Shown here: positions 6,151-62,649 of the stretch, piece by piece
Layout of the letters: each line of letters begins with the position of its first letter
Position numbering within the stretch: position 1 is the first letter of the stretch
Translations under genes and position numbers: made by a program
The notes under the pieces: model-generated
The model's input: the letters and a program-made list of their open reading frames with translations, nothing else
Databases searched by the model: none
Told to the model about the DNA's origin: nothing
Origin: a virus
IMG/VR virus record: IMGVR_UViG_3300008267_000003
Location: 32,001-96,000 of that record
Direction: 5' to 3' (one strand)
DNA: 64,000 nucleotides

Positions 6151-6783
6151 ATGTACGTAATTACTCAGCATAATAAAATACTACTTGGTCCGGTGGAGTG
6201 GAATGCGTCATATATAGCATCTGTTCTCCAGAACGATCTTGATCTATCGCAGCGACCTACGGTACTACCATCAGATATGTTTAAAGTACCCTATTACATC
6301 CTACCTGAAATATATGTAAGAAATGCTGTTGTGAATAAACCAGAATACAACCCTAAAATTCAAAAGTTTGGTGGAACTACATGGACATTTGATGAGAACA
6401 ACGGGTATGCATCACACACCATAATAGATAAAGAGCTAGACGAGGTTAAGGGTGAACTTAAAAATGCAGTAGCTGCTAAGAGATGGGATAAAGAACAAGC
6501 TGGTACTACTGCTTCAATTAACAATCAAGATATTAGTATACCAACATCACGAGATCAAAGACGTGTTTACACGGATAAATTATTGGCTATGCGGGATGAA
6601 GATACATCTATGTGGAAATTTGAAGAGACATGGATATCTCTCACCAAACAGAATTTATTAGAGATTGTTAGAGCTATAGATACATCGGTTCAAGGTGCAT
6701 TTGATTGGGAAATTGAAAAGTGTAGTGAAATTGATTCATGCACCACACTTCAGCAGCTGGATCAAGTAAATTTAGATGGCTAA
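6151..6783 (+). CDS. DUF4376-like tail fibre assembly/chaperone protein
   Basis: 'AAKRWDKEQAG...WKFEETWISLT...VQGAFDWE...EIDSCTTL'; AGGAG RBS. Confidence 0.65.
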   Translation: MYVITQHNKILLGPVEWNASYIASVLQNDLDLSQRPTVLPSDMFKVPYYILPEIYVRNAVVNKPEYNPKIQKFGGTTWTFDENNGYASHTIIDKELDEVKGELKNAVAAKRWDKEQAGTTASINNQDISIPTSRDQRRVYTDKLLAMRDEDTSMWKFEETWISLTKQNLLEIVRAIDTSVQGAFDWEIEKCSEIDSCTTLQQLDQVNLDG

Positions 6784-54254: not shown

Positions 54255-54284
54255 GTATTAAAGTGGGGTGCGACACTTCAACGC

Positions 54285-54380
54285 ACCATATTGAAGCACA
54301 CTGATCCTCAAGGGCACGAGAGGTGGTGTAACCCTAATGCCGGGTGAAGGTTCGAATCCAGCAGTGTGTTTCAATATGGT
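54285..54380 (+). ncRNA. Long-stem structured RNA element H1 with internal T-loop arm
   Basis: 19-bp closing stem 54285-54303/54362-54380 (one G.U); interior hairpins plus GGTTCGAATCC. Confidence 0.55.
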
Positions 54381-54443
54381 AACCCAACTAACTGTGATAC
54401 CAGTACGACATGCTGGGTAGCGGTTATCATAACCAGAATAGTA

Positions 54444-54571
54444 AAACAGAAACATTCTCTGTGATGTGTGCCTTGCTAGGAAACACAGGTACTTACCCTG
54501 TGTGATAGAATTAGCATTGAGGAGTCACGAAAGTTGAGATAGCGTGAGGGAGACTCAGCATGTTTCTGTTT
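54444..54571 (+). ncRNA. Long-stem structured element H5
   Basis: 15-bp closing stem 54444-54458/54557-54571 with one mismatch; internal hairpins. Confidence 0.4.
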
Positions 54572-54603
54572 GGCAAGATTTTGAAATAAAACAGAAATGT
54601 GCG

Positions 54604-54968
54604 TTCTGTCTCTGCAGAGAGTTCAGCAAGGGTTTGATGCGGTAATGACTTCGACATCATGTAACAGTCAGTTCCTTGTTAGCATTAATATTAATTTAGA
54701 GTAACTGAGGCGCTTCACCTCAGGGCGACCAGTGTGAGCCTGCTTTAAGTAGGACAGCTCGCAGAATCAAAGAAGCAAGAATCCGGTTACTACTTCCCTG
54801 AAAGTAGCGTTTGATTAGCGATAGAGATCCGGTGGCAGAAAACCGTTAGCGAGGCAACCCCTCAGACTCTGATAGGCAGTATCCCTCTGCACACAGACAA
54901 CAGAATAAAAGGGATGGACAGGGTAACAACTCGAGGGAGGGGCTAGCGTGGAAAACAGTAGCCTCCCA
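54604..54968 (+). ncRNA. Unknown ~360-nt structured RNA, copy A
   Basis: No ORF; shares ordered motifs and covarying helices with 60514-60880. Confidence 0.6.
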
Positions 54969-54976
54969 CTAATTCA

Positions 54977-55053
54977 GGGCCGGAAGCTCATTTGGTATGA
55001 GCAATCGACTCATAATCGATCGGCATTGGGTTCGAATCCCAAACGGCCCACCA
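54977..55053 (+). tRNA. tRNA-CAT (probably Ile2; Met possible)
   Basis: Cloverleaf, ctCATaa loop, CCA. C4:G69/C5:G68 pairs as in TilS substrates. Confidence 0.85.
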
Positions 55054-55067
55054 CTATTGGAGATAAT

Positions 55068-55499
55068 ATGAAATCTTGGACATTACCTGTTAAAGAAACT
55101 GAGAACGGTGAACTTTACATTGAACTTAACGATGAAATACTTGAAGGTAGTGGATTCAAGATTGGTGACACATTACAATGGAAAGATCTTAAAGATGGAT
55201 CGTACAGCTTAACTAAAGCTGAGGGTGACCTATATGTTGTTGAAGGTATCAGCATGTTCCATATCAAATTTGTAGTTCGTGCAAAGCAAGCGGAACATGC
55301 ATGTGATGAAGTTGTTATGGATAATGGTTCATTGAAAGAGCTTAGCCAGAAACATATAGACTTTAACATTCTTGGAGCTCGAAAAATCTCTCAGGATGAG
55401 TACCTTAGAATGTTCGACGAGGATAATGACTATCTTCGTAGCTGGACAGATGAACAGAAGTTAGATCTGATTAACGAGATTGATTATGAAAGTGATTGA
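55068..55499 (+). CDS. Protein with N-terminal AbrB/MazE-like domain
   Basis: GGAG RBS, start 55068; 'GELYIELNDEILEGSGFKIGDTLQW'. Confidence 0.6.
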   Translation: MKSWTLPVKETENGELYIELNDEILEGSGFKIGDTLQWKDLKDGSYSLTKAEGDLYVVEGISMFHIKFVVRAKQAEHACDEVVMDNGSLKELSQKHIDFNILGARKISQDEYLRMFDEDNDYLRSWTDEQKLDLINEIDYESD

Positions 55500-55644
55500 A
55501 CGTTGGTACGAGAAGCTGCTAGGATATGACTGGCACTACAGACTCCGTAAACAATTTACGTTTACAGAGTGGATAATTGTGTTTGTTGTGGGCTTCTTTG
55601 CCATATACTTTTTCCTTGATTGGATGATTTACGGAGATCTATAA
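55486..55644 (+). CDS. 52-aa membrane protein
   Basis: MKVIERWYEK...WIIVFVVGFFAIYFFLDW; stop overlaps the next start (TAATG). Confidence 0.55.
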   Translation: MKVIERWYEKLLGYDWHYRLRKQFTFTEWIIVFVVGFFAIYFFLDWMIYGDL

Positions 55645-56309
55645 TGCGTGTATACATTGGACCATACAAGAATTGGGTCGGTCCTTTCCAGATTGCAAGA
55701 ACTATTTTGTTCTGGATGGACAGGGAAGACGATCGTGTGTACAAGTTTGGTGAGTGGCTTGCTGGTAAGGACGATTATTCTTTGTTGATGAGGGCTTGTC
55801 TTTGGGTTGAGAAGTTTAGAAAGCAAAAGATAAGCGTCAGAATTGACAATTATGATACATGGTCAATGGACCATACACTTGCTCATATCATCTTACCGAT
55901 GTTAAAACAGCTCAAGGAAACTAAGCATGGAGCTCCTAACGTTGATGATGATGATGTCCCTGAAGAACTGAAAAGCTCTTCGGCTCCACCTAGGGAAGAT
56001 GAGTGGGATATCGATGGTAACCATTTCAAGCGGTGGGATTGGGTACTTGATGAAATGATATTTGCCTTCGAGTGCAAACTTAATGATAGCTGGGACGATG
56101 AGTTCTGGACTGGTGAATGGGGCAAGTCTGAATTTGTAGAAACTGATGAAGAGCATCTTAATTCGTTGACAAATAAAATGGAAAAGTTGTATACTATGGT
56201 TAATTCAGGTAACCGTACCTGTGATTGGGAAGCGCGTCAGAAAGTTCAGAACCGTATAACCAATGGGTTCAAACTGTTTGGCAAATATTATGAAAATCTT
56301 TGGGATTGA
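55644..56309 (+). CDS. Conserved phage hypothetical protein
   Basis: 'YDTWSMDHTLA.IILPML', 'WDWVLDEMIFAF', 'GFKLFGKYYENLWD'. Confidence 0.75.
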   Translation: MRVYIGPYKNWVGPFQIARTILFWMDREDDRVYKFGEWLAGKDDYSLLMRACLWVEKFRKQKISVRIDNYDTWSMDHTLAHIILPMLKQLKETKHGAPNVDDDDVPEELKSSSAPPREDEWDIDGNHFKRWDWVLDEMIFAFECKLNDSWDDEFWTGEWGKSEFVETDEEHLNSLTNKMEKLYTMVNSGNRTCDWEARQKVQNRITNGFKLFGKYYENLWD

Positions 56310-56310
56310 T

Positions 56311-56841
56311 ATGAACAAATTTTATATTATGATGTTGGTAGTGGCTCTTGGTGCTTGTTCTAGTAATAAGATGACCAAAGTTCCAGAATCAACTGGTCTT
56401 GTTCCAGACTGGTTTGCATCCGAGCCTCAGAAAGACAGTACTGATGTTGTTGTTACTGCAACTGATATATCTAAGGACATGCAGTTTGCAATTGATAAAG
56501 CAATGTTAAATGCACGAGTAGAACTGGCTAACCGTATCAGTACTAAGGTAGAATCAATAGTTCGAGAATCTGTTATAGAAGATAGTTCATCCAAGGTTAA
56601 GGATGTAGAACGTGAGGTTGATCGAGTATCTAAACAAGTTACGGAACAGGTGCTATCAATGTATACACGTGAAAAACTTGTTGTGGTTAAAGAAGGTGGC
56701 GGTTATAGAGCTTATGTAATGCTCAAGCTATCTGAAGATCAAGGTCGTAAGCTGTTCAACAACGCTCGCAAAAGTTCTAAGAATAGAGAGGCTGCTTTTA
56801 GAGAACTTGATTCTGAAATTGAAAGATCAAGAAAAAACTAA
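56311..56841 (+). CDS. Lipoprotein (LPP20-like)
   Basis: Lipobox 'LGAC' after the signal peptide; 'VPDWF'. Confidence 0.7.
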   Translation: MNKFYIMMLVVALGACSSNKMTKVPESTGLVPDWFASEPQKDSTDVVVTATDISKDMQFAIDKAMLNARVELANRISTKVESIVRESVIEDSSSKVKDVEREVDRVSKQVTEQVLSMYTREKLVVVKEGGGYRAYVMLKLSEDQGRKLFNNARKSSKNREAAFRELDSEIERSRKN

Positions 56842-56869
56842 AATATTTTTAGTAAAAGTTTGATTTACG

Positions 56870-56898
56870 TTGACATTTTTTATATATAGTAGTACGAT
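56870..56898 (+). promoter_or_regulatory. sigma70 promoter of the tRNA array leader
   Basis: TTGACA-17 nt-TACGAT. Confidence 0.75.
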
Positions 56899-56926
56899 TA
56901 CTTTTTTTTGCAGGACCATTGGAATA

Positions 56927-57016
56927 ATGATACAGATACATACAACCCCCCAGATTTCCATTAATGGCTTTACGAAGCCAGGATATCGCGCCGACTCATG
57001 GAGCGAGATATCATAG
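56927..57016 (+). CDS. Putative 29-aa leader peptide MIQIHTTPQISINGFTKPGYRADSWSEIS
   Basis: AGGA/GGA upstream; stop codon abuts the antiterminator/terminator hairpins. Confidence 0.6.
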   Translation: MIQIHTTPQISINGFTKPGYRADSWSEIS

Positions 57017-57048
57017 GGTCATAGTATACTCCGTATATTCCAAGACCC
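57016..57048 (+). promoter_or_regulatory. Putative antiterminator hairpin
   Basis: GGGTC..AGTATAC-TCC-GTATATT..GACCC; its 3' strand overlaps the terminator 5' arm. Confidence 0.55.
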
Positions 57049-57074
57049 GAGCAAAACGACTCGGGTTTTTTTTT
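57045..57074 (+). terminator. Intrinsic terminator (attenuator)
   Basis: ACCCGAG-CAAAACGA-CTCGGGT followed by 8 more T. Confidence 0.85.
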
Positions 57075-57075
57075 A

Positions 57076-57087
57076 GCTCTCTAACAA
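57076..57087 (+). promoter_or_regulatory. boxA-like antitermination site
   Basis: GCTCTCTAACAA, one mismatch to rrn boxA GCTCTTTAACA, just before the first tRNA. Confidence 0.6.
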
Positions 57088-57099
57088 TTAGGATCCATT

Positions 57100-57189
57100 G
57101 GAAGCTTGGCTGAGTGGTTTAAGGCAGCGGTCTTGAAAACCGTCGATCGTTTGCGCGGTCCGTGAGTTCGAATCTCACAGCTTCCACCA
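57100..57189 (+). tRNA. tRNA-Ser(TGA)
   Basis: Cloverleaf, long V-arm, CCA. Confidence 0.93.
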
Positions 57190-57260
57190 TATAAAAGTAC
57201 ACTAACCACTACAGTAGGGATCCTGGTGGGGCTGCTACACCCTAGTGTACTTTTATATGG
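57187..57260 (+). ncRNA. Long-stem element H2 between two tRNA-Ser genes
   Basis: Perfect 18-bp inverted repeat 57187-57204/57243-57260. Confidence 0.55.
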
Positions 57261-57348
57261 AGAATTGGCTGAGAGGCTTAAGGCAGCGGTTTGCTAAACC
57301 GTCGATTCAGTAATGGGTCCACTGGTTCGAATCCAGTATTCTCCACCA
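57259..57348 (+). tRNA. tRNA-Ser(GCT)
   Basis: Cloverleaf, long V-arm, CCA. Confidence 0.93.
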
Positions 57349-57363
57349 ACTAAGGAGGAAGAA

Positions 57364-57960
57364 ATGGCAAATATATTTTTAGTTAGCGATACCCATTTTG
57401 GTCATGCTGGTGTTTGTCGTTTCCTTAGAGACGATGGAACCAAGCTTCGGCCATGGGATGATCCAAATGATATGGATGAAGCTATGATTGAAAAATGGAA
57501 CTCTGTTGTCAAACCAAGAGACAAGGTGTATCATCTTGGAGATGTAGTAATAAATCGGAAAGCATTAAAGATACTAGGATTGCTTAATGGTGATAAGGTT
57601 TTAATCAAAGGTAATCACGATATCTTTAAGCTAGAGGATTATACACCTTACTTCAGAGATATTCGTGGTTATCATGTAATGAGTGGAATGATATTAAGTC
57701 ATATTCCAGTTCATGAAAGTAACCTTTATAGATTTGGAACAAATATTCACGGTCATACTCATAGTAACCGAGTAATGAAAACAGTTACTGTGCAAGAGTC
57801 TAGTCCGTATGATCCAAGACCGTATGATGTTAAAAAGCAAGTTATCGATCCTCGATACCACTGTGTATGTGTTGAACAAACTGACTTTGCACCAATCTCT
57901 TTTGAGGATGTAAAGTTACGAATCAAGGCAGAAGGTGGTGACATATCATTTAAAAGTTAA
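57364..57960 (+). CDS. Calcineurin-like metallophosphoesterase
   Basis: AAGGAGG RBS; 'SDTHFGH', 'HLGD', 'GNHD', 'HGHTH'. Confidence 0.88.
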   Translation: MANIFLVSDTHFGHAGVCRFLRDDGTKLRPWDDPNDMDEAMIEKWNSVVKPRDKVYHLGDVVINRKALKILGLLNGDKVLIKGNHDIFKLEDYTPYFRDIRGYHVMSGMILSHIPVHESNLYRFGTNIHGHTHSNRVMKTVTVQESSPYDPRPYDVKKQVIDPRYHCVCVEQTDFAPISFEDVKLRIKAEGGDISFKS

Positions 57961-57961
57961 T

Positions 57962-58039
57962 GCAACGGTGGCAGAGAGGCCCAATGCAAGAGTCTGCAAA
58001 ACTCTAAAACCGTCAGTTCGAATCTGACCCGTTGCTCCA
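57962..58039 (+). tRNA. tRNA-Cys(GCA)
   Basis: ctGCAaa loop, U73, CCA. Confidence 0.92.
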
Positions 58040-58048
58040 GGAGGCTAT

Positions 58049-58294
58049 ATGAGTGGTAAAGGAAGTAAACCAAGACCTTATAGTGTTGATCAGAAAACGT
58101 TTGATTCTAATTGGAATAGTATATTCAATAAGAAGAAAAAGACTGATCAAGAAAAGTTTGATGAAGCAATAATGAAGAATGAATATTATGATAAGCTAAC
58201 CACAGAAGAAGCTTTAACTGAAATGGTTAGGATTAGTGAAGAGATGGGTGCTTATGTTGATGAGCCTATTGAGAACCCATTGATTAAAAAATAA
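58049..58294 (+). CDS. Hypothetical protein ('GKGSKPRP' family)
   Basis: GGAGG RBS. Confidence 0.65.
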   Translation: MSGKGSKPRPYSVDQKTFDSNWNSIFNKKKKTDQEKFDEAIMKNEYYDKLTTEEALTEMVRISEEMGAYVDEPIENPLIKK

Positions 58295-58295
58295 T

Positions 58296-58369
58296 CTCGG
58301 TGTGATGTAATGGTAGCATAGCGATCTCCAAAATCGTTTGTTGCGGTTCGAGTCCGTACACCGAGGCCA
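58296..58369 (+). tRNA. tRNA-Trp(CCA)
   Basis: ctCCAaa loop, G73, CCA. Confidence 0.9.
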
Positions 58370-58377
58370 GAAACAAC

Positions 58378-58472
58378 GGTAGGTAGCACTGGTGTGCGGC
58401 TAGGTCTTATAAGCCTGGGAGAGCGGTCAGATGGGCTGCAACGGAAGAGTTCGAATCTCTTACCTACTACCA
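58378..58472 (+). tRNA. Non-canonical tRNA with TAT anticodon and long variable arm
   Basis: 95 nt; short 4-bp/4-nt D arm, 6-bp anticodon stem, ctTATaa loop, T arm, CCA. Confidence 0.75.
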
Positions 58473-58474
58473 AC

Positions 58475-58549
58475 GCGGATATAATTCAGTGGTAGAATGT
58501 TTGCTTGCCAAGCAAAATGTCGTCGGTTCGAACCCGACTATCCGCTCCA
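58475..58549 (+). tRNA. tRNA-Gly(GCC)
   Basis: ttGCCaa loop, U73, CCA. Confidence 0.93.
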
Positions 58550-58675
58550 CTAACAAGGAGAACCAAAATGGGGCTGTTGCAGTAATCTTTTTAGTTGTTG
58601 TATTGTTATATTTTATTGATAAAAATTCTTAGAAAGGAGTCCTGTTATGGACAGTGACAAGAGTGATAAGATGAT

Positions 58676-58752
58676 GGGTGCGTAACTCAACTGGTTAGAG
58701 TAATCGGCTTTTAACCGATAAGTTGTGAGTTCGAGTCTCACCGCACCTACCA
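58676..58752 (+). tRNA. tRNA-Lys(TTT)
   Basis: ctTTTaa loop, CCA. Confidence 0.93.
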
Positions 58753-58836
58753 TATACAAACACATTCAAACACATAATGACGCCCGGGGTTATGGATTAC
58801 TGTTACGAGGATCCAAGAGTGTGTTTCTATATGGTA
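58748..58836 (+). ncRNA. Long-stem element H3
   Basis: 20-bp stem 58748-58767/58817-58836 (one C.C, one U.G) enclosing two hairpins. Confidence 0.55.
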
Positions 58837-58841
58837 TCTAT

Positions 58842-58915
58842 TGGGGTATAGTGAAATGGTATAACAACTGGTTTTGAGCCAGTCGTCCTTGGTTCGATTC
58901 CAAGTGCCCCTGCCA
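58842..58915 (+). tRNA. tRNA-Gln(TTG)
   Basis: ttTTGag loop, 1:72 mismatch, G73, CCA. Confidence 0.9.
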
Positions 58916-58921
58916 AGTATT

Positions 58922-58996
58922 CGGTCTTTAGTAAAATGGAGATTACGCAACGCTACGGACGTTGAGGTGTGGGTTCGATTCCTGCAAGACCGGCCA
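58922..58996 (+). tRNA. tRNA-Arg(ACG)
   Basis: ctACGga loop, CCA. Confidence 0.9.
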
Positions 58997-58998
58997 AT

Positions 58999-59074
58999 GG
59001 TGTCTTTAGTGTAGTGGCCTGCATTCGAGTCTGTGAAACTCGAGGTACGAGATCGATACTCGTAAGACACCCCA
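58999..59074 (+). tRNA. tRNA-His(GTG)
   Basis: G-1:C73, ctGTGaa loop, CCA. Confidence 0.9.
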
Positions 59075-59076
59075 AT

Positions 59077-59152
59077 GCTGCTTTAGCTGATGTGGTCATA
59101 GCAGGTCCCTGAAGAGGACATGAACTAGGTTCGATTCCTAGAGGCAGCACCA
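59077..59152 (+). tRNA. tRNA-Phe(GAA)
   Basis: ctGAAga loop, CCA. Confidence 0.9.
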
Positions 59153-59162
59153 AAGTTTGAAT

Positions 59163-59247
59163 GGGAGTGCGGCGCAGTTAGAGAGGCGCGGCTGACTGTA
59201 AATCAGTTCTTTCGGGTGAGTAGGTGCGAATCCTTCCACTCCCACCA
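59163..59247 (+). tRNA. tRNA-Tyr(GTA)
   Basis: ctGTAaa loop, V-arm, CCA. Confidence 0.9.
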
Positions 59248-59251
59248 ATTT

Positions 59252-59326
59252 ACCTTCGTAGCTCAGTGGTAGAGCATTCGCTTGATAAGCGAAGGGTCAG
59301 TGGATCGTTCCCACTCGAAGGTACCA
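59252..59326 (+). tRNA. tRNA-Ile(GAT)
   Basis: ttGATaa loop, CCA. Confidence 0.9.
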
Positions 59327-59335
59327 AAGGATATT

Positions 59336-59824
59336 ATGAAAAAATTACTTTTTATTTTAATGTTGTTACCATCCATTGCAAGTGCTTGTGACAGTTACGT
59401 TATTGGATTCAAAGGCATTAACAATGTATTTGATGATAACGCTTTTAGACAGTATGCAATGAAGTATAAAGCATGTTCATTAGCTTACAGTTGGAATCAA
59501 GTGCATACAGCTGTTAAATTTATTAACAGTACTAAGAAGAAGTATCAGCTGTATGGATTCAGTAAGGGCGCAGAAAGTATAGGACAGGTTTTAAAACAAG
59601 TTAAACGCAAACCATACCACGTAGTAACAATTGGTGCTTACCATACTGCGAATGTTAACTATAGAGTGTACGGTGTGTCAACGCAGAACTATTTTGACGG
59701 CTCGGGAAGTAGGAACAGGTCCCCGGGCACTCATATAAGAGGAGTAGATCACGAAGACATGCAAAGACACGTTAATAGTTACTATTTTGGTATCAAACAA
59801 TGCCAGCGGAGAAAGGGCTGTTGA
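59336..59824 (+). CDS. Secreted small alpha/beta-hydrolase-like protein
   Basis: AAGGA RBS, signal peptide MKKLLFILMLLPSIASA, 'YGFSKGA' GxSxG motif. Confidence 0.6.
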   Translation: MKKLLFILMLLPSIASACDSYVIGFKGINNVFDDNAFRQYAMKYKACSLAYSWNQVHTAVKFINSTKKKYQLYGFSKGAESIGQVLKQVKRKPYHVVTIGAYHTANVNYRVYGVSTQNYFDGSGSRNRSPGTHIRGVDHEDMQRHVNSYYFGIKQCQRRKGC

Positions 59825-59849
59825 CTTATTTTTGTGCTTGAGAGATAAT
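59821..59849 (+). promoter_or_regulatory. sigma70-type promoter
   Basis: TTGACT-17 nt-GATAAT. Confidence 0.7.
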
Positions 59850-59880
59850 ACATTTGTAACCATTGATAAAGGATAACATT

Positions 59881-60303
59881 ATGAAATTAGCTGCCGGTAA
59901 GTATGTGATTGCAGACCCCTGCTACATCCTCAATGAGGAAGTGTACTTCAGACTGCTGAAAGAAACCAACTACTTCATGTACGAAGCTGTTGAACGTGGT
60001 GGTGTAATGTCAGACAGTGAGACGGGAAAGTTCTTTGCTGTATTCAGTACCAAGTATGGTGATGGCACATACAGGGATGGTAAGGGATTCAAGTATGGTG
60101 TAGATGCAGGTTGCATTGCATGTATCCCTGCTGAGATGTGTGATCTGAAAGAAGACCGTGAGTACATCAACGAAGTAACTTTTGCTAGAGACTTCGAGGT
60201 ACGGTACGAGGATGGTTTGATTATATTTGGAGATGTAATTATTAATACTGATCCAGATGATTTTTATGATGATGAGGAAGAAAGCTACGAAGATGTAGCG
60301 TAA
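59881..60303 (+). CDS. Conserved phage hypothetical protein
   Basis: AAGGA RBS; 'YVIADPCY', 'TKYGDGTY', 'VDAGCI'. Confidence 0.7.
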   Translation: MKLAAGKYVIADPCYILNEEVYFRLLKETNYFMYEAVERGGVMSDSETGKFFAVFSTKYGDGTYRDGKGFKYGVDAGCIACIPAEMCDLKEDREYINEVTFARDFEVRYEDGLIIFGDVIINTDPDDFYDDEEESYEDVA

Positions 60304-60312
60304 GGTTTTAGT

Positions 60313-60387
60313 GCACCGTTCGTCTATCGGTTAGGACATTGCCCTTTCACGGCAGTAAGAGGAGTTCGATTCTCCTACGGTGTACCA
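60313..60387 (+). tRNA. tRNA-Glu(TTC)
   Basis: ctTTCac loop, CCA. Confidence 0.92.
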
Positions 60388-60506
60388 TTTGATATGCTGG
60401 TTGTAAGCCATGGGCCGCAAGCCTGAGTAACTATCACAATATCTGGTTATCTCGAGTAACTCCAGTGAGTCGATAGCAAATAGTGCAGCCAGCATTTCAA
60501 ATGGTA
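60383..60506 (+). ncRNA. Long-stem element H4
   Basis: 23-bp stem 60383-60405/60484-60506 (two U.G, one U.U) enclosing a branched interior. Confidence 0.55.
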
Positions 60507-60513
60507 ACATAAA

Positions 60514-60880
60514 GGTTTGGCAGGAGCAGAGTCCAGTGGGAAGGACGACTAGGGGCCTGTAAAAACAAAGTAGTGAAACAATGGTATATCAACCATCAAA
60601 GTAGCGAACAGCCCTTATAGTAAACGGAGTAGCGGGAGAGAGTGATGTCTCAATGTGTCTACACCGGCCAAAAGAATCCCGTAGTCCCGTCTACGTTATT
60701 AACGGGGGTGTATTGGCACTAACCAGAACGCCAGGGTGCATACGATCACGGACCTCAAAACTCACTGACATGAGTGATAGAAACATCGTAGGTGGGTATC
60801 ACACCTTGTTTAACCAAAAGTAAATGTGATGGACAGAGTAACTGCTCAGGAGGGGGCTTATGGGAATGAGTAGCCTTCCA
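60514..60880 (+). ncRNA. Unknown ~365-nt structured RNA, copy B
   Basis: Paralogue of 54604-54968; no ORF. Confidence 0.6.
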
Positions 60881-60887
60881 AGATTAT

Positions 60888-60964: not shown

Positions 60965-60980
60965 AATTAGAAAGGGTAGT

Positions 60981-61220
60981 ATGTGGGAAGTAATATTTAC
61001 GTTCTTAGCGTTATTCTTTACAGATATATTTTACACATACTATCTAAGATCAATACAGAATGAGCAGCCACTTGCATCTAGTATATGGGCTGTGATTGTA
61101 TTTGCTGTTGCCAGTGTAGCAGTAATCAACTATACTACTAATCACTGGCTTCTCATTCCTGCATGCCTAGGTGCTTTCTGTGGCACTTACGTAGGTATGA
61201 TTCTGAGGAGAAAGAAATAA
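60981..61220 (+). CDS. Small multi-pass membrane protein
   Basis: Three hydrophobic segments, basic C-terminus. Confidence 0.65.
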   Translation: MWEVIFTFLALFFTDIFYTYYLRSIQNEQPLASSIWAVIVFAVASVAVINYTTNHWLLIPACLGAFCGTYVGMILRRKK

Positions 61221-61331: not shown

Positions 61332-62120
61332 ATGAAAGCACTAATACTTTCCTTTGCGTTGCTGTTCAGTACCAACGTCCTGTCAGCAACCCAGTACGTA
61401 TATAACTATTCAAAAAATGAAATTGTGATAGATGAAGGTTCAGATAAGGTAAGACCCATTGCAAGTGTTACAAAGTTGATGACTGCTATTGTAATCCTTG
61501 AAAGTGAAGTTAGCCTAGATGAAAAAGTTCCTTATAAAGGATTCAAGAACATTCCATCCAAGCAAAGAACAAGAGACGAGTTGTTAGCTCTCCTGCTGAT
61601 TAAGAGTGACAACAACGCTGCAGAAGCTCTTGCAAGAAGTTTTCCAGGTGGTAGAGATCATTTTATTGATATGATGAATGTAACATCCAAGTTCCTGGGC
61701 ATGGAGTATACTACGTATGATGATCCTTCTGGTCTTAGTCCTAGAAATCAAAGTACTGCAAAAGATCTTACAAAGCTGTTGCATTATGCTTCGACCTACC
61801 CTAAAATCAAACAGATTGCTTCTATGACTAGCTTCATGTTGGTAGAACCTTCTGTAAAGAAGGCAACAGCAAAGAAGAAGAAAAAGAAAGCAAGAACATT
61901 CAGTAGTTATAGAGTGATTACAGTAAACAATACTAACTTTCATCTACTGAATGAATACGAAGAGATTGAGATCTCCAAGACTGGATACACCAATCCAGCT
62001 GGTAAGTGCTTAACAATGTTTGTTACTAAGAATGGTGAGCATTTTGCAGTTGTTATTCTTGGTGAGCGTAATATGAGAGATGTAGAAAAAGTATCAAGAA
62101 AGATTTTAGATAATCTGTAG
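61332..62120 (+). CDS. D-alanyl-D-alanine carboxypeptidase/endopeptidase (peptidase S11, PBP7-like)
   Basis: Signal peptide; SxxK 'ASVTKL', 'SDN', 'KTG'. Confidence 0.88.
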   Translation: MKALILSFALLFSTNVLSATQYVYNYSKNEIVIDEGSDKVRPIASVTKLMTAIVILESEVSLDEKVPYKGFKNIPSKQRTRDELLALLLIKSDNNAAEALARSFPGGRDHFIDMMNVTSKFLGMEYTTYDDPSGLSPRNQSTAKDLTKLLHYASTYPKIKQIASMTSFMLVEPSVKKATAKKKKKKARTFSSYRVITVNNTNFHLLNEYEEIEISKTGYTNPAGKCLTMFVTKNGEHFAVVILGERNMRDVEKVSRKILDNL

Positions 62121-62280: not shown

Positions 62281-62649
62281 ATGGTTATGACTAAATTATT
62301 TGGTAAAGTTGATAAGGGTTGGGGCCATGAACTTATATGGGCATCGACCGATCAGTATTGCTGCAAGTTTTTAAACTTTGATAGACCAGCAGCAAAGACA
62401 TCAATGCATTATCATGAACATAAAGATGAACAGTGGTATGTTCAGAGTGGTAGGTTTCAGGTCGACTGGATTAATCTAGAAGATGGTTCGACAAAGTTTT
62501 GTAATCTTGAGGTAGGAGATACATGGCATAATTATGCTGGTACACCTCATAGGTTAGTTTGTATTGAACCTGGAACAGTAGTCGAAGTGAGCACTGCTGA
62601 TAGTGTTGAGGACAACTACAGGATTATTCCTGGCGATAGCCAGAAATAA
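62281..62649 (+). CDS. Cupin (mannose-6-phosphate isomerase-like) protein
   Basis: 'KGWGHELIW', 'SMHYHEHKDE', 'PHRL', 'EVST..DNYRI.PGDSQ'. Confidence 0.8.
   Translation: MVMTKLFGKVDKGWGHELIWASTDQYCCKFLNFDRPAAKTSMHYHEHKDEQWYVQSGRFQVDWINLEDGSTKFCNLEVGDTWHNYAGTPHRLVCIEPGTVVEVSTADSVEDNYRIIPGDSQK

What the first reader, a model, noticed from the sequence alone, without database searches (positions are those of the whole stretch)
54285..60506. Family of long-stem RNA elements that start exactly at CCA ends
Seen: four elements with 18-23-bp closing stems whose 5' arm begins with the CCA of the preceding RNA and whose 3' arm ends ATGG. H1 is 54285-54380, H2 57187-57260 (after Ser-TGA, its last GG being the first bases of Ser-GCT), H3 58748-58836 (after Lys) and H4 60383-60506 (after Glu). 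The 5' arms of H1-H3 are related (CCATATTGAAGCACACT / CCATATAAAAGTACACT / CCATATACAAACACATT). The interiors (about 40-80 nt) differ but each forms a multi-branch structure. Most deviations are G.U pairs, which favours RNA-level selection over DNA inverted repeats. Inference: these are cassettes with a constant protein-recognised stem and variable cargo, such as RNase III-released small RNAs, Y-RNA-like or decoy RNAs for defence proteins, or structures that sequester the CCA to control tRNA maturation. They recall the function-unknown T4 species 1/2 RNAs.
Basis: partly seen in the sequence, partly recalled or inferred. Interest (0 to 1): 0.75.

Follow-up and report, generated by a model that had tools for sequence, protein, structure and literature searches.

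The report
Hairpin RNA cassettes between phage tRNAs
Four long-stemmed RNA hairpins wedged between the tRNA genes of an uncultured T4-like lake phage belong to a large, uncatalogued, virus-only family in which one conserved stem, starting on the CCA end of the preceding tRNA, frames hundreds of different small RNAs; they are most likely cut out of the tRNA transcript by the cell's RNA-trimming enzymes, and what the released RNAs do is still unknown.

Summary
H1-H4 are real 19-23-bp hairpins (fold z-scores -4.2 to -5.0). H2, H3 and H4 start on the last bases of tRNA-Ser, tRNA-Lys and tRNA-Glu. H1 starts on a tRNA-Lys-derived mini-hairpin, not on a real RNA 3' end.

H1-H3 belong to a large family. 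I found 315 non-nested copies in 2.0 Mb of related virus DNA. Rfam 15 and GenBank phages gave no match.

The family has these properties:
- The 15-bp core arms are conserved and covary.
- Wobble pairs lie on the tRNA-sense strand.
- In about half of the copies the first A of the core is exactly A76 of a tRNA, mostly Lys, Gln or Glu.
- Interiors fall into 187 sequence clusters, are never inverted, and show internal compensatory changes.
- The same inner stem closes the excised intervening segment of the phage's own permuted tmRNA gene.

H4 is a separate conserved RNA class whose arms differ between phages but covary.

Best reading: these are RNA processing cassettes excised from the tRNA-array transcript, releasing small stem-closed RNAs. 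Cleavage and function are inferred, not shown. This scan's other agents reported the same family before on other phage DNA.

The parts
54267..54288 (+). Mini-hairpin (6-bp stem, 9-nt loop) made of the two acceptor-stem halves of tRNA-Lys. Its last base is the first A of the H1 core arm.
   Evidence: Read from the sequence and compared with tRNA-Lys at 58676-58752. ARAGORN and Rfam call no tRNA here.
54285..54380 (+). H1: family-type arms (5' arm 54285-54305, 3' arm 54360-54380). The cargo has a T-loop-like motif.
   Evidence: (I4). The cargo resembles L010:608-716 and the T-loop cargo class.
57100..57189 (+). tRNA-Ser(UGA). Its CCA forms the first three pairs of H2.
57187..57260 (+). H2: family-type arms with 18 perfect pairs. 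It exactly fills the gap between tRNA-Ser(UGA) and tRNA-Ser(GCT).
   Evidence: (I9).
57259..57348 (+). tRNA-Ser(GCT). Its G1 and G2 are the last two bases of the H2 3' arm.
58676..58752 (+). tRNA-Lys(UUU). U72-A73-C74-C75-A76 form the outer pairs of H3.
58748..58836 (+). H3: family-type arms with the family's typical mismatch at arm position 5. The same cargo (92% identical) sits in other arms and another context at L062:1252-1336.
   Evidence: (I8).
60313..60387 (+). tRNA-Glu(UUC). Its 3' end forms the outer pairs of H4.
60383..60506 (+). H4: a separate conserved RNA class of about 125 nt. The long closing stem differs in sequence between phages but stays complementary.
   Evidence: (I3). In alignment A1, 15 of 35 pairs have changes on both sides.

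Best explanation
H1-H4 are RNA-level cassettes co-transcribed with the tRNA array. Each is a small structured RNA (the cargo) enclosed by a long helix, and the outer pairs of that helix use the CCA end, often also N73 and U72, of the RNA in front of it.

In H1-H3 and hundreds of relatives the helix has a conserved 15-bp core: 5' ATATWRAARCACAYT paired with 3' AGTGTGYTTYWATAT.

Proposed mechanism:
1. The helix is a processing module. While it is intact, the upstream 3' end cannot be trimmed or charged.
2. Host enzymes excise the cassette. RNase P cuts where the 3' arm abuts the next tRNA. A double-strand-specific or trailer endonuclease, RNase III being the prime candidate, cuts on the 5' side.
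3. This frees the upstream CCA end and releases a nuclease-protected, stem-closed small RNA.
4. The cargo-specific job of that RNA is unknown.

Shown: the structure; its conservation and strand; its exact register with tRNA ends; the modular cargo; and its use as the intervening segment of permuted tmRNA.

Inferred: the cleavages, the enzymes, the stability of the released RNA and any function of it.
For: 1. Register with tRNA ends. In 150 of 315 non-nested elements (162 of 339 before removing nested ones), the first A of the core is exactly A76 of an ARAGORN tRNA. In 59, the GG after the 3' arm are bases 1-2 of the next tRNA.

2. Sense-strand RNA pairing. Position 13 is U.G in 211 elements, C-G in 79 and C.A in 0. 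Positions 8 and 11 behave likewise. Among 261 arm haplotypes the paired fraction is 0.937, against a permuted mean of 0.812 and a maximum of 0.821. Position 4 switches between U-A (137) and A-U (110) and stays 99% paired.

3. The helix includes the CCA. Pairs at C75 and C74 covary (C-G, with U-A alternatives). Behind Lys, Gln and Glu tRNAs, N73 and U72 are paired in 54-97% and 73-84% of copies.

4. Link to tmRNA. The same inner arm closes the intervening segment between the CCA and the 5' G of the phage's own permuted tmRNA gene, and of 5 of 6 other permuted tmRNAs in related loci. Such segments are removed by tRNA-processing enzymes (PMC11915505).

5. The cargo is selected as RNA. Compensatory changes occur inside cargo helices. 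Cargo matches between elements give 0 inverted against 552 direct blast pairs. T-loop motifs occur in 22 cargos against 0.8 expected.

6. Experimental precedent. T5 RNAIII, an annotated stable RNA, is a 12-bp-stem-closed RNA lying between the CCA-ended RNAI and tRNA-His.

7. Host enzymes must do the work. The phage genome encodes no RNase III, Mini-III, RNase P RNA, CCA-adding enzyme, RtcB, Ro or integrase.
Against: - No expression or end-mapping data exist; every cleavage step is inferred.
- A mere processing helix would not need a conserved sequence across hundreds of divergent phages. That points to a sequence-specific partner or to spread by recombination, neither of which is identified.
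- The staggered-cut geometry of RNase III does not coincide exactly with the A76 and tRNA +1 boundaries (my own reasoning).
- Arm position 5 is an A.C mismatch in 39% of copies, which is unexplained.
- Cargo fold z-scores are modest: mean -0.49 over 182 representatives.
- About 90 of 315 elements are not preceded by CC at all, so pairing with a CCA is frequent but not obligatory.
Confidence: 0.55

Rival explanations
1. The conserved helix is a docking site for one specific protein, phage or host, in the manner of the Ro-binding stem of Y RNAs. The variable cargo is the working part, for example a decoy, sponge or aptamer aimed at host defence or RNA-metabolism proteins.
For: - The arm sequence, not only the pairing, is conserved across hundreds of contigs, including contigs over 300 kb.
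- One arm position keeps a mismatch.
- Cargo turnover is very fast: 43 cargo clusters sit behind tRNA-Lys alone.
- The family is virus-only: at least 120 virus stretches against 2 short MAG contigs.
- Some cargos carry T-loop or tRNA-like modules.
Against: - The genome has no TROVE/Ro gene and there is no Rfam Y_RNA or YrlA match.
- No candidate partner was identified.
- Anticodon-loop mimics are not enriched in cargo.
- The use of the same stem in the discarded tmRNA intervening segment fits processing better than an effector role.
Confidence: 0.2
2. The hairpin is a cis-acting clamp that regulates the tRNA in front of it. By pairing U72-A76 it delays 3' maturation and charging of tRNA-Lys, Gln and Glu, and the cargo is only a spacer.
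For: - There is a strong preference for Lys (10 of 33), Gln (9 of 24) and Glu (7 of 31), against 8 of about 840 other tRNAs, in loci not selected for the arms.
- The helix extends into U72 of exactly these tRNAs.
Against: - Cargo classes are conserved across phages, with internal covariation and fixed orientation.
- Elements also occur in tandem, after non-tRNA RNAs, and without any CC in front.
- H1 follows only a mini-hairpin.
Confidence: 0.12
3. This is primarily a DNA-level element. The arms are terminal inverted repeats of a MITE, or folded single-strand recombination sites like integron attC, that shuffle cassettes among phage tRNA islands. The RNA structure is incidental.
For: - The same cargo cluster sits behind different tRNAs in 13 of 26 clusters.
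- Different cargos sit at the same tRNA.
- H3's cargo recurs with different arms in L062.
- The arms are near-palindromic, and TA flanks both sides of H3 and H4.
Against: - There is no consistent target-site duplication: behind Gln the left flank is TG and the right TA, and Ser and Leu differ again.
- The genome has no integrase.
- Elements are always co-oriented with the tRNAs, and cargo is never inverted.
- Cargo helices contain G.U pairs and compensatory changes.
- The T-loop motif is an RNA motif.
- Recombination between arms may still explain the shuffling as a secondary property.
Confidence: 0.08

Closest known systems
Intervening segment of circularly permuted (two-piece) tmRNA genes (Rfam RF04321, RF01849; PMC11915505)
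   Same: - It lies between a CCA 3' end and the 5' end of the next RNA piece.
- It is a hairpin that tRNA-processing enzymes remove.
- In this phage and in 5 of 6 related phages it is closed by the same inner arm sequence as H1-H3.
   Different: - H1-H4 lie between separate RNAs (tRNA to tRNA, or tRNA to a large ncRNA), not inside a tmRNA.
- Their interiors are conserved RNA classes.
- The family is far more numerous than tmRNA genes.
RNase III processing stems: stems flanking 16S and 23S rRNA in rRNA operons, 23S rRNA intervening sequences, and phage T7 R1.1-type sites (from my own knowledge; reviews PMC3867540 and PMC8708148 were listed but not read)
   Same: - A helix of about 20 bp is formed by sequences flanking an RNA that is to be released.
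- The excised piece is not re-ligated.
- 23S intervening sequences are likewise sporadic and exchangeable.
   Different: - Cleavage by RNase III has not been shown here.
- The arm sequence is conserved across very different phages, which RNase III does not require.
- The helix is in exact register with tRNA A76 and tRNA +1.
Stable small RNAs of phage tRNA clusters: T5 RNAIII, RNAI and RNAIV (NC_005859) and T4 species 1 and 2 (rnaC, rnaD; NC_000866)
   Same: - They are non-tRNA RNAs packed head to tail with tRNAs.
- T5 RNAIII has a 12-bp closing stem around a three-way junction, follows the CCA-ended RNAI and abuts tRNA-His.
- T4 species 1 RNA carries a T-arm, as H1's cargo does.
- Their functions are unknown.
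   Different: - There is no sequence similarity to the arms.
- Their stems are shorter or absent.
- They have no shared constant stem with swappable interiors.
Bacterial Y RNAs (YrlA) bound by Ro/Rsr
   Same: A long stem formed by the 5' and 3' ends carries a variable module that can be tRNA-like, as with the T-loop in H1's cargo.
   Different: - The genome has no Ro/TROVE gene and there is no match to the Rfam Y RNA models.
- Most cargos are not tRNA-like.
- The stem sequence is unrelated.

Membership tests
Conserved-arm hairpin cassettes of phage tRNA arrays (undescribed in Rfam or the papers searched; defined here) | A 15-bp core helix matching 5' ATATWRAARCACAYT / 3' AGTGTGYTTYWATAT at 12 or more of 15 positions on each arm, with 13 or more pairs | tested here: met
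   H1, H2 and H3 pass. H4 does not: its arms are of another type.
Conserved-arm hairpin cassettes of phage tRNA arrays (undescribed in Rfam or the papers searched; defined here) | Same orientation as the tRNA genes, with the first A of the core coinciding with A76 of the preceding RNA | tested here: met
   H2, H3 and H4 start on real tRNA ends. H1 starts on a mini-hairpin remnant.
Conserved-arm hairpin cassettes of phage tRNA arrays (undescribed in Rfam or the papers searched; defined here) | A variable interior of 23-198 nt that differs between copies | tested here: met
   The cargos of H1-H3 are unrelated to each other. The family holds 187 clusters among 315 elements.
H4-type RNA (a class of about 125 nt, usually behind tRNA-Glu) | A conserved interior with three internal helices and a long closing stem that covaries between phages | tested here: met
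   In alignment A1 of 8 sequences, 15 of 35 pairs have changes on both sides.
Any Rfam 15 family | A covariance-model match at E <= 1 | tested here: not met
   Only chance microRNA-like matches on the opposite strand of H2 were found. Six element-rich related loci gave nothing either.
Y RNA / YrlA | A Ro (TROVE) protein gene in the genome and a match to the Y RNA models | tested here: not met
   PF05731 is absent from the 162-kb genome and there is no Rfam match.
RNase III processing site | An uninterrupted or nearly uninterrupted helix of about two turns | tested here: met
   The stems are 19-23 bp.
RNase III processing site | Staggered cleavage by RNase III | not testable with these tools
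   This needs enzyme assays or end mapping. The phage encodes no RNase III or Mini-III of its own.
Intervening segment of permuted tmRNA | Lies between the acceptor-piece CCA and the 5' end of the coding piece of one tmRNA gene | tested here: not met
   H1-H4 lie between separate RNAs. The phage's true tmRNA intervening segment is at G000:C1:6269-6335 and shares the inner arm.
MITE / IS630-Tc1-type element | Target-site duplication, insertion in both orientations, interiors of one descent | tested here: not met
   The flanks are inconsistent. All copies are co-oriented and none is inverted. There are 187 cargo clusters.
Integron attC-like recombination site | A tyrosine recombinase partner | tested here: not met
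   PF00589 is absent from the genome.

The most novel reading that the evidence does not exclude
The conserved stem is a universal adaptor that lets large lake phages express, process and exchange a library of well over a hundred different small effector RNAs (decoys, sponges, tRNA mimics) from their tRNA islands. This would be an RNA counterpart of a gene-cassette system. A dedicated, still unknown stem-recognising factor would be involved, with a functional tie to the Lys, Gln and Glu tRNAs that anticodon nucleases attack.
Probability: 0.2. Interest if true: 0.9.

Novelty: new variant of a known kind. Interest (0 to 1): 0.72.

Why it matters
Phage 'tRNA islands' hold far more than tRNAs. This family appears to be their commonest non-tRNA component in lake phages, yet it is in no RNA catalogue.

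If the reading is right:
- It explains how many small RNAs are produced from one transcript without their own promoters or terminators.
- It gives annotators a simple signature for hundreds of unannotated RNA genes.
- It offers a natural, portable processing cassette for expressing small RNAs.
- It poses a testable question: why are tRNA-Lys, Gln and Glu singled out? These are the tRNAs most often targeted by anticodon nucleases (my own knowledge).

The rapid swapping of cargos behind a constant stem suggests an arms-race function worth testing.

Tried and rejected
- **Cultured phages.** Megablast and blastn of the region and of H3 against 50,697 GenBank phage records found only tRNA matches or chance hits. 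The family is not seen in cultured phages at this sensitivity.
- **First pattern search.** My first pattern on the own genome was one base out of register and found nothing.
- **Y RNA.** No TROVE gene and no Rfam match.
- **Phage-encoded processing or repair enzymes.** RNase III, Mini-III, RNase P RNA, CCA-adding enzyme, RtcB and integrase are all absent.
- **Anticodon-stem-loop decoys.** Seven-nucleotide loops with the U33/R37 signature numbered 29, against 16 in shuffles, out of 156 against 120 loops. Lys, Glu and Gln anticodon-loop words are almost absent. Not supported.
- **MITE with a TA duplication.** Flanks are inconsistent.
- **attC-like site.** No integrase and strict orientation.
- **Promoter readings of the arms** (T4 late or middle promoter, or a sigma-70 -10 box). 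The words occur in only some arm variants and would place start sites inside tRNAs. This is by inspection only.
- **T4 rnaC and rnaD.** They lack the closing stem.
- **IMG/VR structured-RNA catalogue.** The supplementary alignments of PMC10690425 are not held, so I cannot exclude that single members are listed there under anonymous numbers.
- **Wrong paper.** A guessed paper id was wrong.
- **Lenient hairpin scans.** Scans at 16 of 17 pairs are dominated by chance hits: 61 against about 32 in shuffles.


Full report
**Context.** The window is bases 32001-96000 of a 162,011-bp IMG/VR virus record with direct terminal repeats. Its gp46-like recombination nuclease is 46-50% identical to those of T4-like phages of Stenotrophomonas and cyanobacteria, so this is a distant, uncultured T4-type phage. 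ARAGORN finds 24 tRNA genes, all on the + strand, between 54977 and 63526, and Rfam agrees. The finding lies in this tRNA island.

**The observation.** All four hairpins exist where stated.
- RNA folding gives closing stems of 19-23 bp and energies of -29.5 to -44.8 kcal/mol. These lie 4.2-5.0 sd below dinucleotide shuffles.
- The inverted-repeat finder lists them as its strongest local pairs (I3, I4, I8, I9).
- H2 runs from C74 of tRNA-Ser(UGA) to G2 of tRNA-Ser(GCT).
- H3 starts at U72 of tRNA-Lys and ends 5 nt before tRNA-Gln.
- H4 starts at U72 of tRNA-Glu.
- H1 is different. What precedes it is not a tRNA but a 6-bp mini-hairpin (54267-54288) whose two strands are the acceptor-stem halves of tRNA-Lys, so its 'CCA' is two stem bases plus an A.
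- In the whole genome, hairpins with at least 18 of 19 pairs number 14, against 5.7 in shuffles. Five of the 14 start at a CCA. Chance cannot give that.

**A large family.**
- I fetched 80 related loci through the phosphoesterase gene that sits among the tRNAs. The same hairpins appeared there behind Glu, Lys, Gln, Leu, Arg, Phe, Ala, Gly and Ile tRNAs.
- The same pattern found only two short MAG contigs, from Planktophila and Sediminibacterium and most likely phage DNA, in 185,579 prokaryote genomes.
- GenBank phages gave nothing. Rfam 15 gave nothing for the window or for element-rich loci.
- In 201 loci (2.0 Mb) I count 339 distinct and 315 non-nested elements. Their core arms are 5' ATATWRAARCACAYT and 3' AGTGTGYTTYWATAT.

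**It is an RNA helix on the tRNA strand.** I oriented each element by its neighbouring tRNAs.
- Every variable arm position but one shows G.U, never A.C, as the intermediate state. Position 13 is U.G 211, C-G 79 and U-A 24. Position 8 is A-U 207, G.U 54 and G-C 51. Position 11 is C-G 233, U.G 48 and U-A 29.
- The G/U-rich 3' arm is the more constant arm and the A/C-rich 5' arm takes the transitions, as expected for RNA pairing.
- Among 261 arm haplotypes, 93.7% of positions pair. After permuting partners the figure is 81.2%, with a maximum of 82.1% in 1000 permutations. Position 4 flips between U-A and A-U yet stays 99% paired.
- The exception is position 5, which is A.C in 39% of copies. It looks like a tolerated or wanted mismatch.
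- A folded single DNA strand would show the same strand bias. The cargo evidence below is what argues for RNA.

**Register with RNA ends.**
- In 162 of 339 elements the first A of the core is exactly A76 of a called tRNA. Other offsets are almost absent.
- In 59 elements the GG after the 3' arm are bases 1-2 of the next tRNA, so the cassette fills the inter-tRNA gap to the base.
- The pairs at C75 and C74 covary with their partners (C-G, or U-A where no CCA is present). Behind Lys, Gln and Glu tRNAs the helix usually also takes in N73 and U72.
- Other elements follow non-tRNA RNAs that end in NCCA: mini-hairpins, or the 3' domain of large ncRNAs like the two in this window. Still others follow another cassette in tandem, or nothing recognisable.

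**Cargo.**
- Interiors are 23-198 nt long (median 50). Their GC content is 49%, against 22% in the arms and 40% in the loci.
- They fall into 187 blast clusters.
- Clusters are conserved across phages and show compensatory changes in internal helices.
- T-loop motifs occur in 22 cargos, against 0.8 expected. H1 is one of these.
- Cargo is never inverted relative to the tRNAs: 0 minus-strand against 552 plus-strand matches.
- Cassettes move relative to tRNAs. Sixty elements behind tRNA-Lys(UUU) carry 43 cargo clusters. Thirteen of 26 clusters with three or more members sit behind different tRNAs. H3's cargo recurs at 92% identity in other arms and another context in L062.
- H4 is the converse case. 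Its interior is conserved in eight phages, while its arms differ in sequence and covary: 15 of 35 pairs change on both sides.

**The tmRNA clue.**
- The phage has a circularly permuted tmRNA gene at genome bases 6176-6544, outside the window.
- Its intervening segment lies between the acceptor-piece CCA and the 5' G of the other piece. It is a hairpin closed by the same inner arm, in the rarer variant that H2 also has.
- Five of six other permuted tmRNAs in the related loci do the same.
- Such segments are absent from mature tmRNA and are removed by tRNA-processing enzymes (PMC11915505).
- This is the best available indication of what the stem is for: it marks a stretch to be excised between a CCA 3' end and the next 5' end.

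**Mechanism.** The phage encodes none of the obvious enzymes: RNase III, Mini-III, RNase P RNA, CCA-adding enzyme, RtcB, Ro or integrase. Host enzymes must therefore act. My reading has three steps.
1. RNase P makes the 3' end where a tRNA abuts.
2. An endonuclease opens the 5' side. RNase III fits a 19-23-bp helix; RNase E or RNase Z are alternatives.
3. The upstream tRNA is trimmed to CCA, and the cargo leaves with a protective stem.

All of this is inference. The conserved arm sequence and the position-5 mismatch ask for something more specific than generic double-strand recognition.

**Unexplained preference.** In loci not selected for the arms, the element follows Lys in 10 of 33 cases, Gln in 9 of 24 and Glu in 7 of 31, but only 8 of about 840 other tRNAs. 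These three tRNAs have U72, which the 3' arm extension pairs with, so sequence fit may suffice as an explanation. Anticodon-loop decoys are not enriched in cargo.

**Comparison with known systems.**
- The nearest experimentally known RNAs are the stable RNAs of the T5 tRNA region. RNAIII has a 12-bp closing stem and lies between the CCA-ended RNAI and tRNA-His.
- T4 species 1 and 2 abut tRNA-Arg, and species 1 has a T-arm, but they have no long conserved stem.
- In working principle the closest are the tmRNA intervening segments and the RNase III stems and intervening sequences of rRNA.
- Related loci also carry GOLLD RNAs, so these are the lake phages already known for ornate RNAs next to tRNAs (PMC12286853).

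**Earlier notes of this scan.** Other agents reported the same family on other phage genomes, with similar readings. I reached the tmRNA link and the family statistics before reading those notes. The T5 RNAIII lead came from them, and I checked it myself.

**Verdict.** The feature is real and the family is widespread and uncatalogued. The constant-stem, variable-cargo architecture is well supported. Processing is the best-supported role (0.55), and the function of the released RNAs is open.

Noticed in passing
G000:C1:6176-6544 (outside the window, genome coordinates): The phage carries a circularly permuted tmRNA gene (tag ANDSEYALAA). Its 67-nt intervening segment is closed by the same inner arm as H2.
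   Followed up: yes
window 54381-54976 and 60507-60887: Two large non-coding blocks, each directly after a cassette (H1, H4) and ending just before a tRNA (Met, Asn). They share a 3' motif (D18). In relatives (L086, L134) the same 3' domain ends in CCA and is followed by a cassette. There is no Rfam match.
   Followed up: partly
window 54381-54440: The stretch right after H1 recurs after a cassette in L130, where it ends in CCA and is followed by another cassette. It is probably a further small RNA module.
   Followed up: no
window 58378-58472: A 95-nt tRNA-like gene with anticodon UAU and a long variable arm. It scores only as a weak tRNA-Sec match in Rfam (29 bits). Similar long tRNA-Ile(UAU) calls occur in relatives (L075, L181).
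   Followed up: no
whole genome G000: ARAGORN finds tRNAs for 19 amino acids but none for alanine, although relatives carry tRNA-Ala.
   Followed up: no
window 57364-57957: A calcineurin-like phosphoesterase gene embedded in the tRNA island. It is conserved in at least 598 IMG/VR stretches. An RNA-end healing role is conceivable but untested.
   Followed up: no
L011:4059-4158 and L077:4178-4275: Long-stem cassettes of another arm type whose cargo reads as a complete tRNA-His (anticodon GUG). ARAGORN did not call it.
   Followed up: no
L044:9002-9465, L081:503-965, L131:2633-3098; L044:11364-11566: GOLLD RNAs, and in L044 also a group I intron, lie in the tRNA islands of related phages.
   Followed up: no
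window 60974-61045: A further hairpin with 18 of 19 pairs, 10 nt after tRNA-Asn. It is rich in G.U and overlaps the start of a 79-codon ORF. It may be chance.
   Followed up: no
window 61332-62117 and 62281-62646: A D-Ala-D-Ala carboxypeptidase (Peptidase_S11, E 1e-36) gene and a cupin gene sit between tRNA genes.
   Followed up: no
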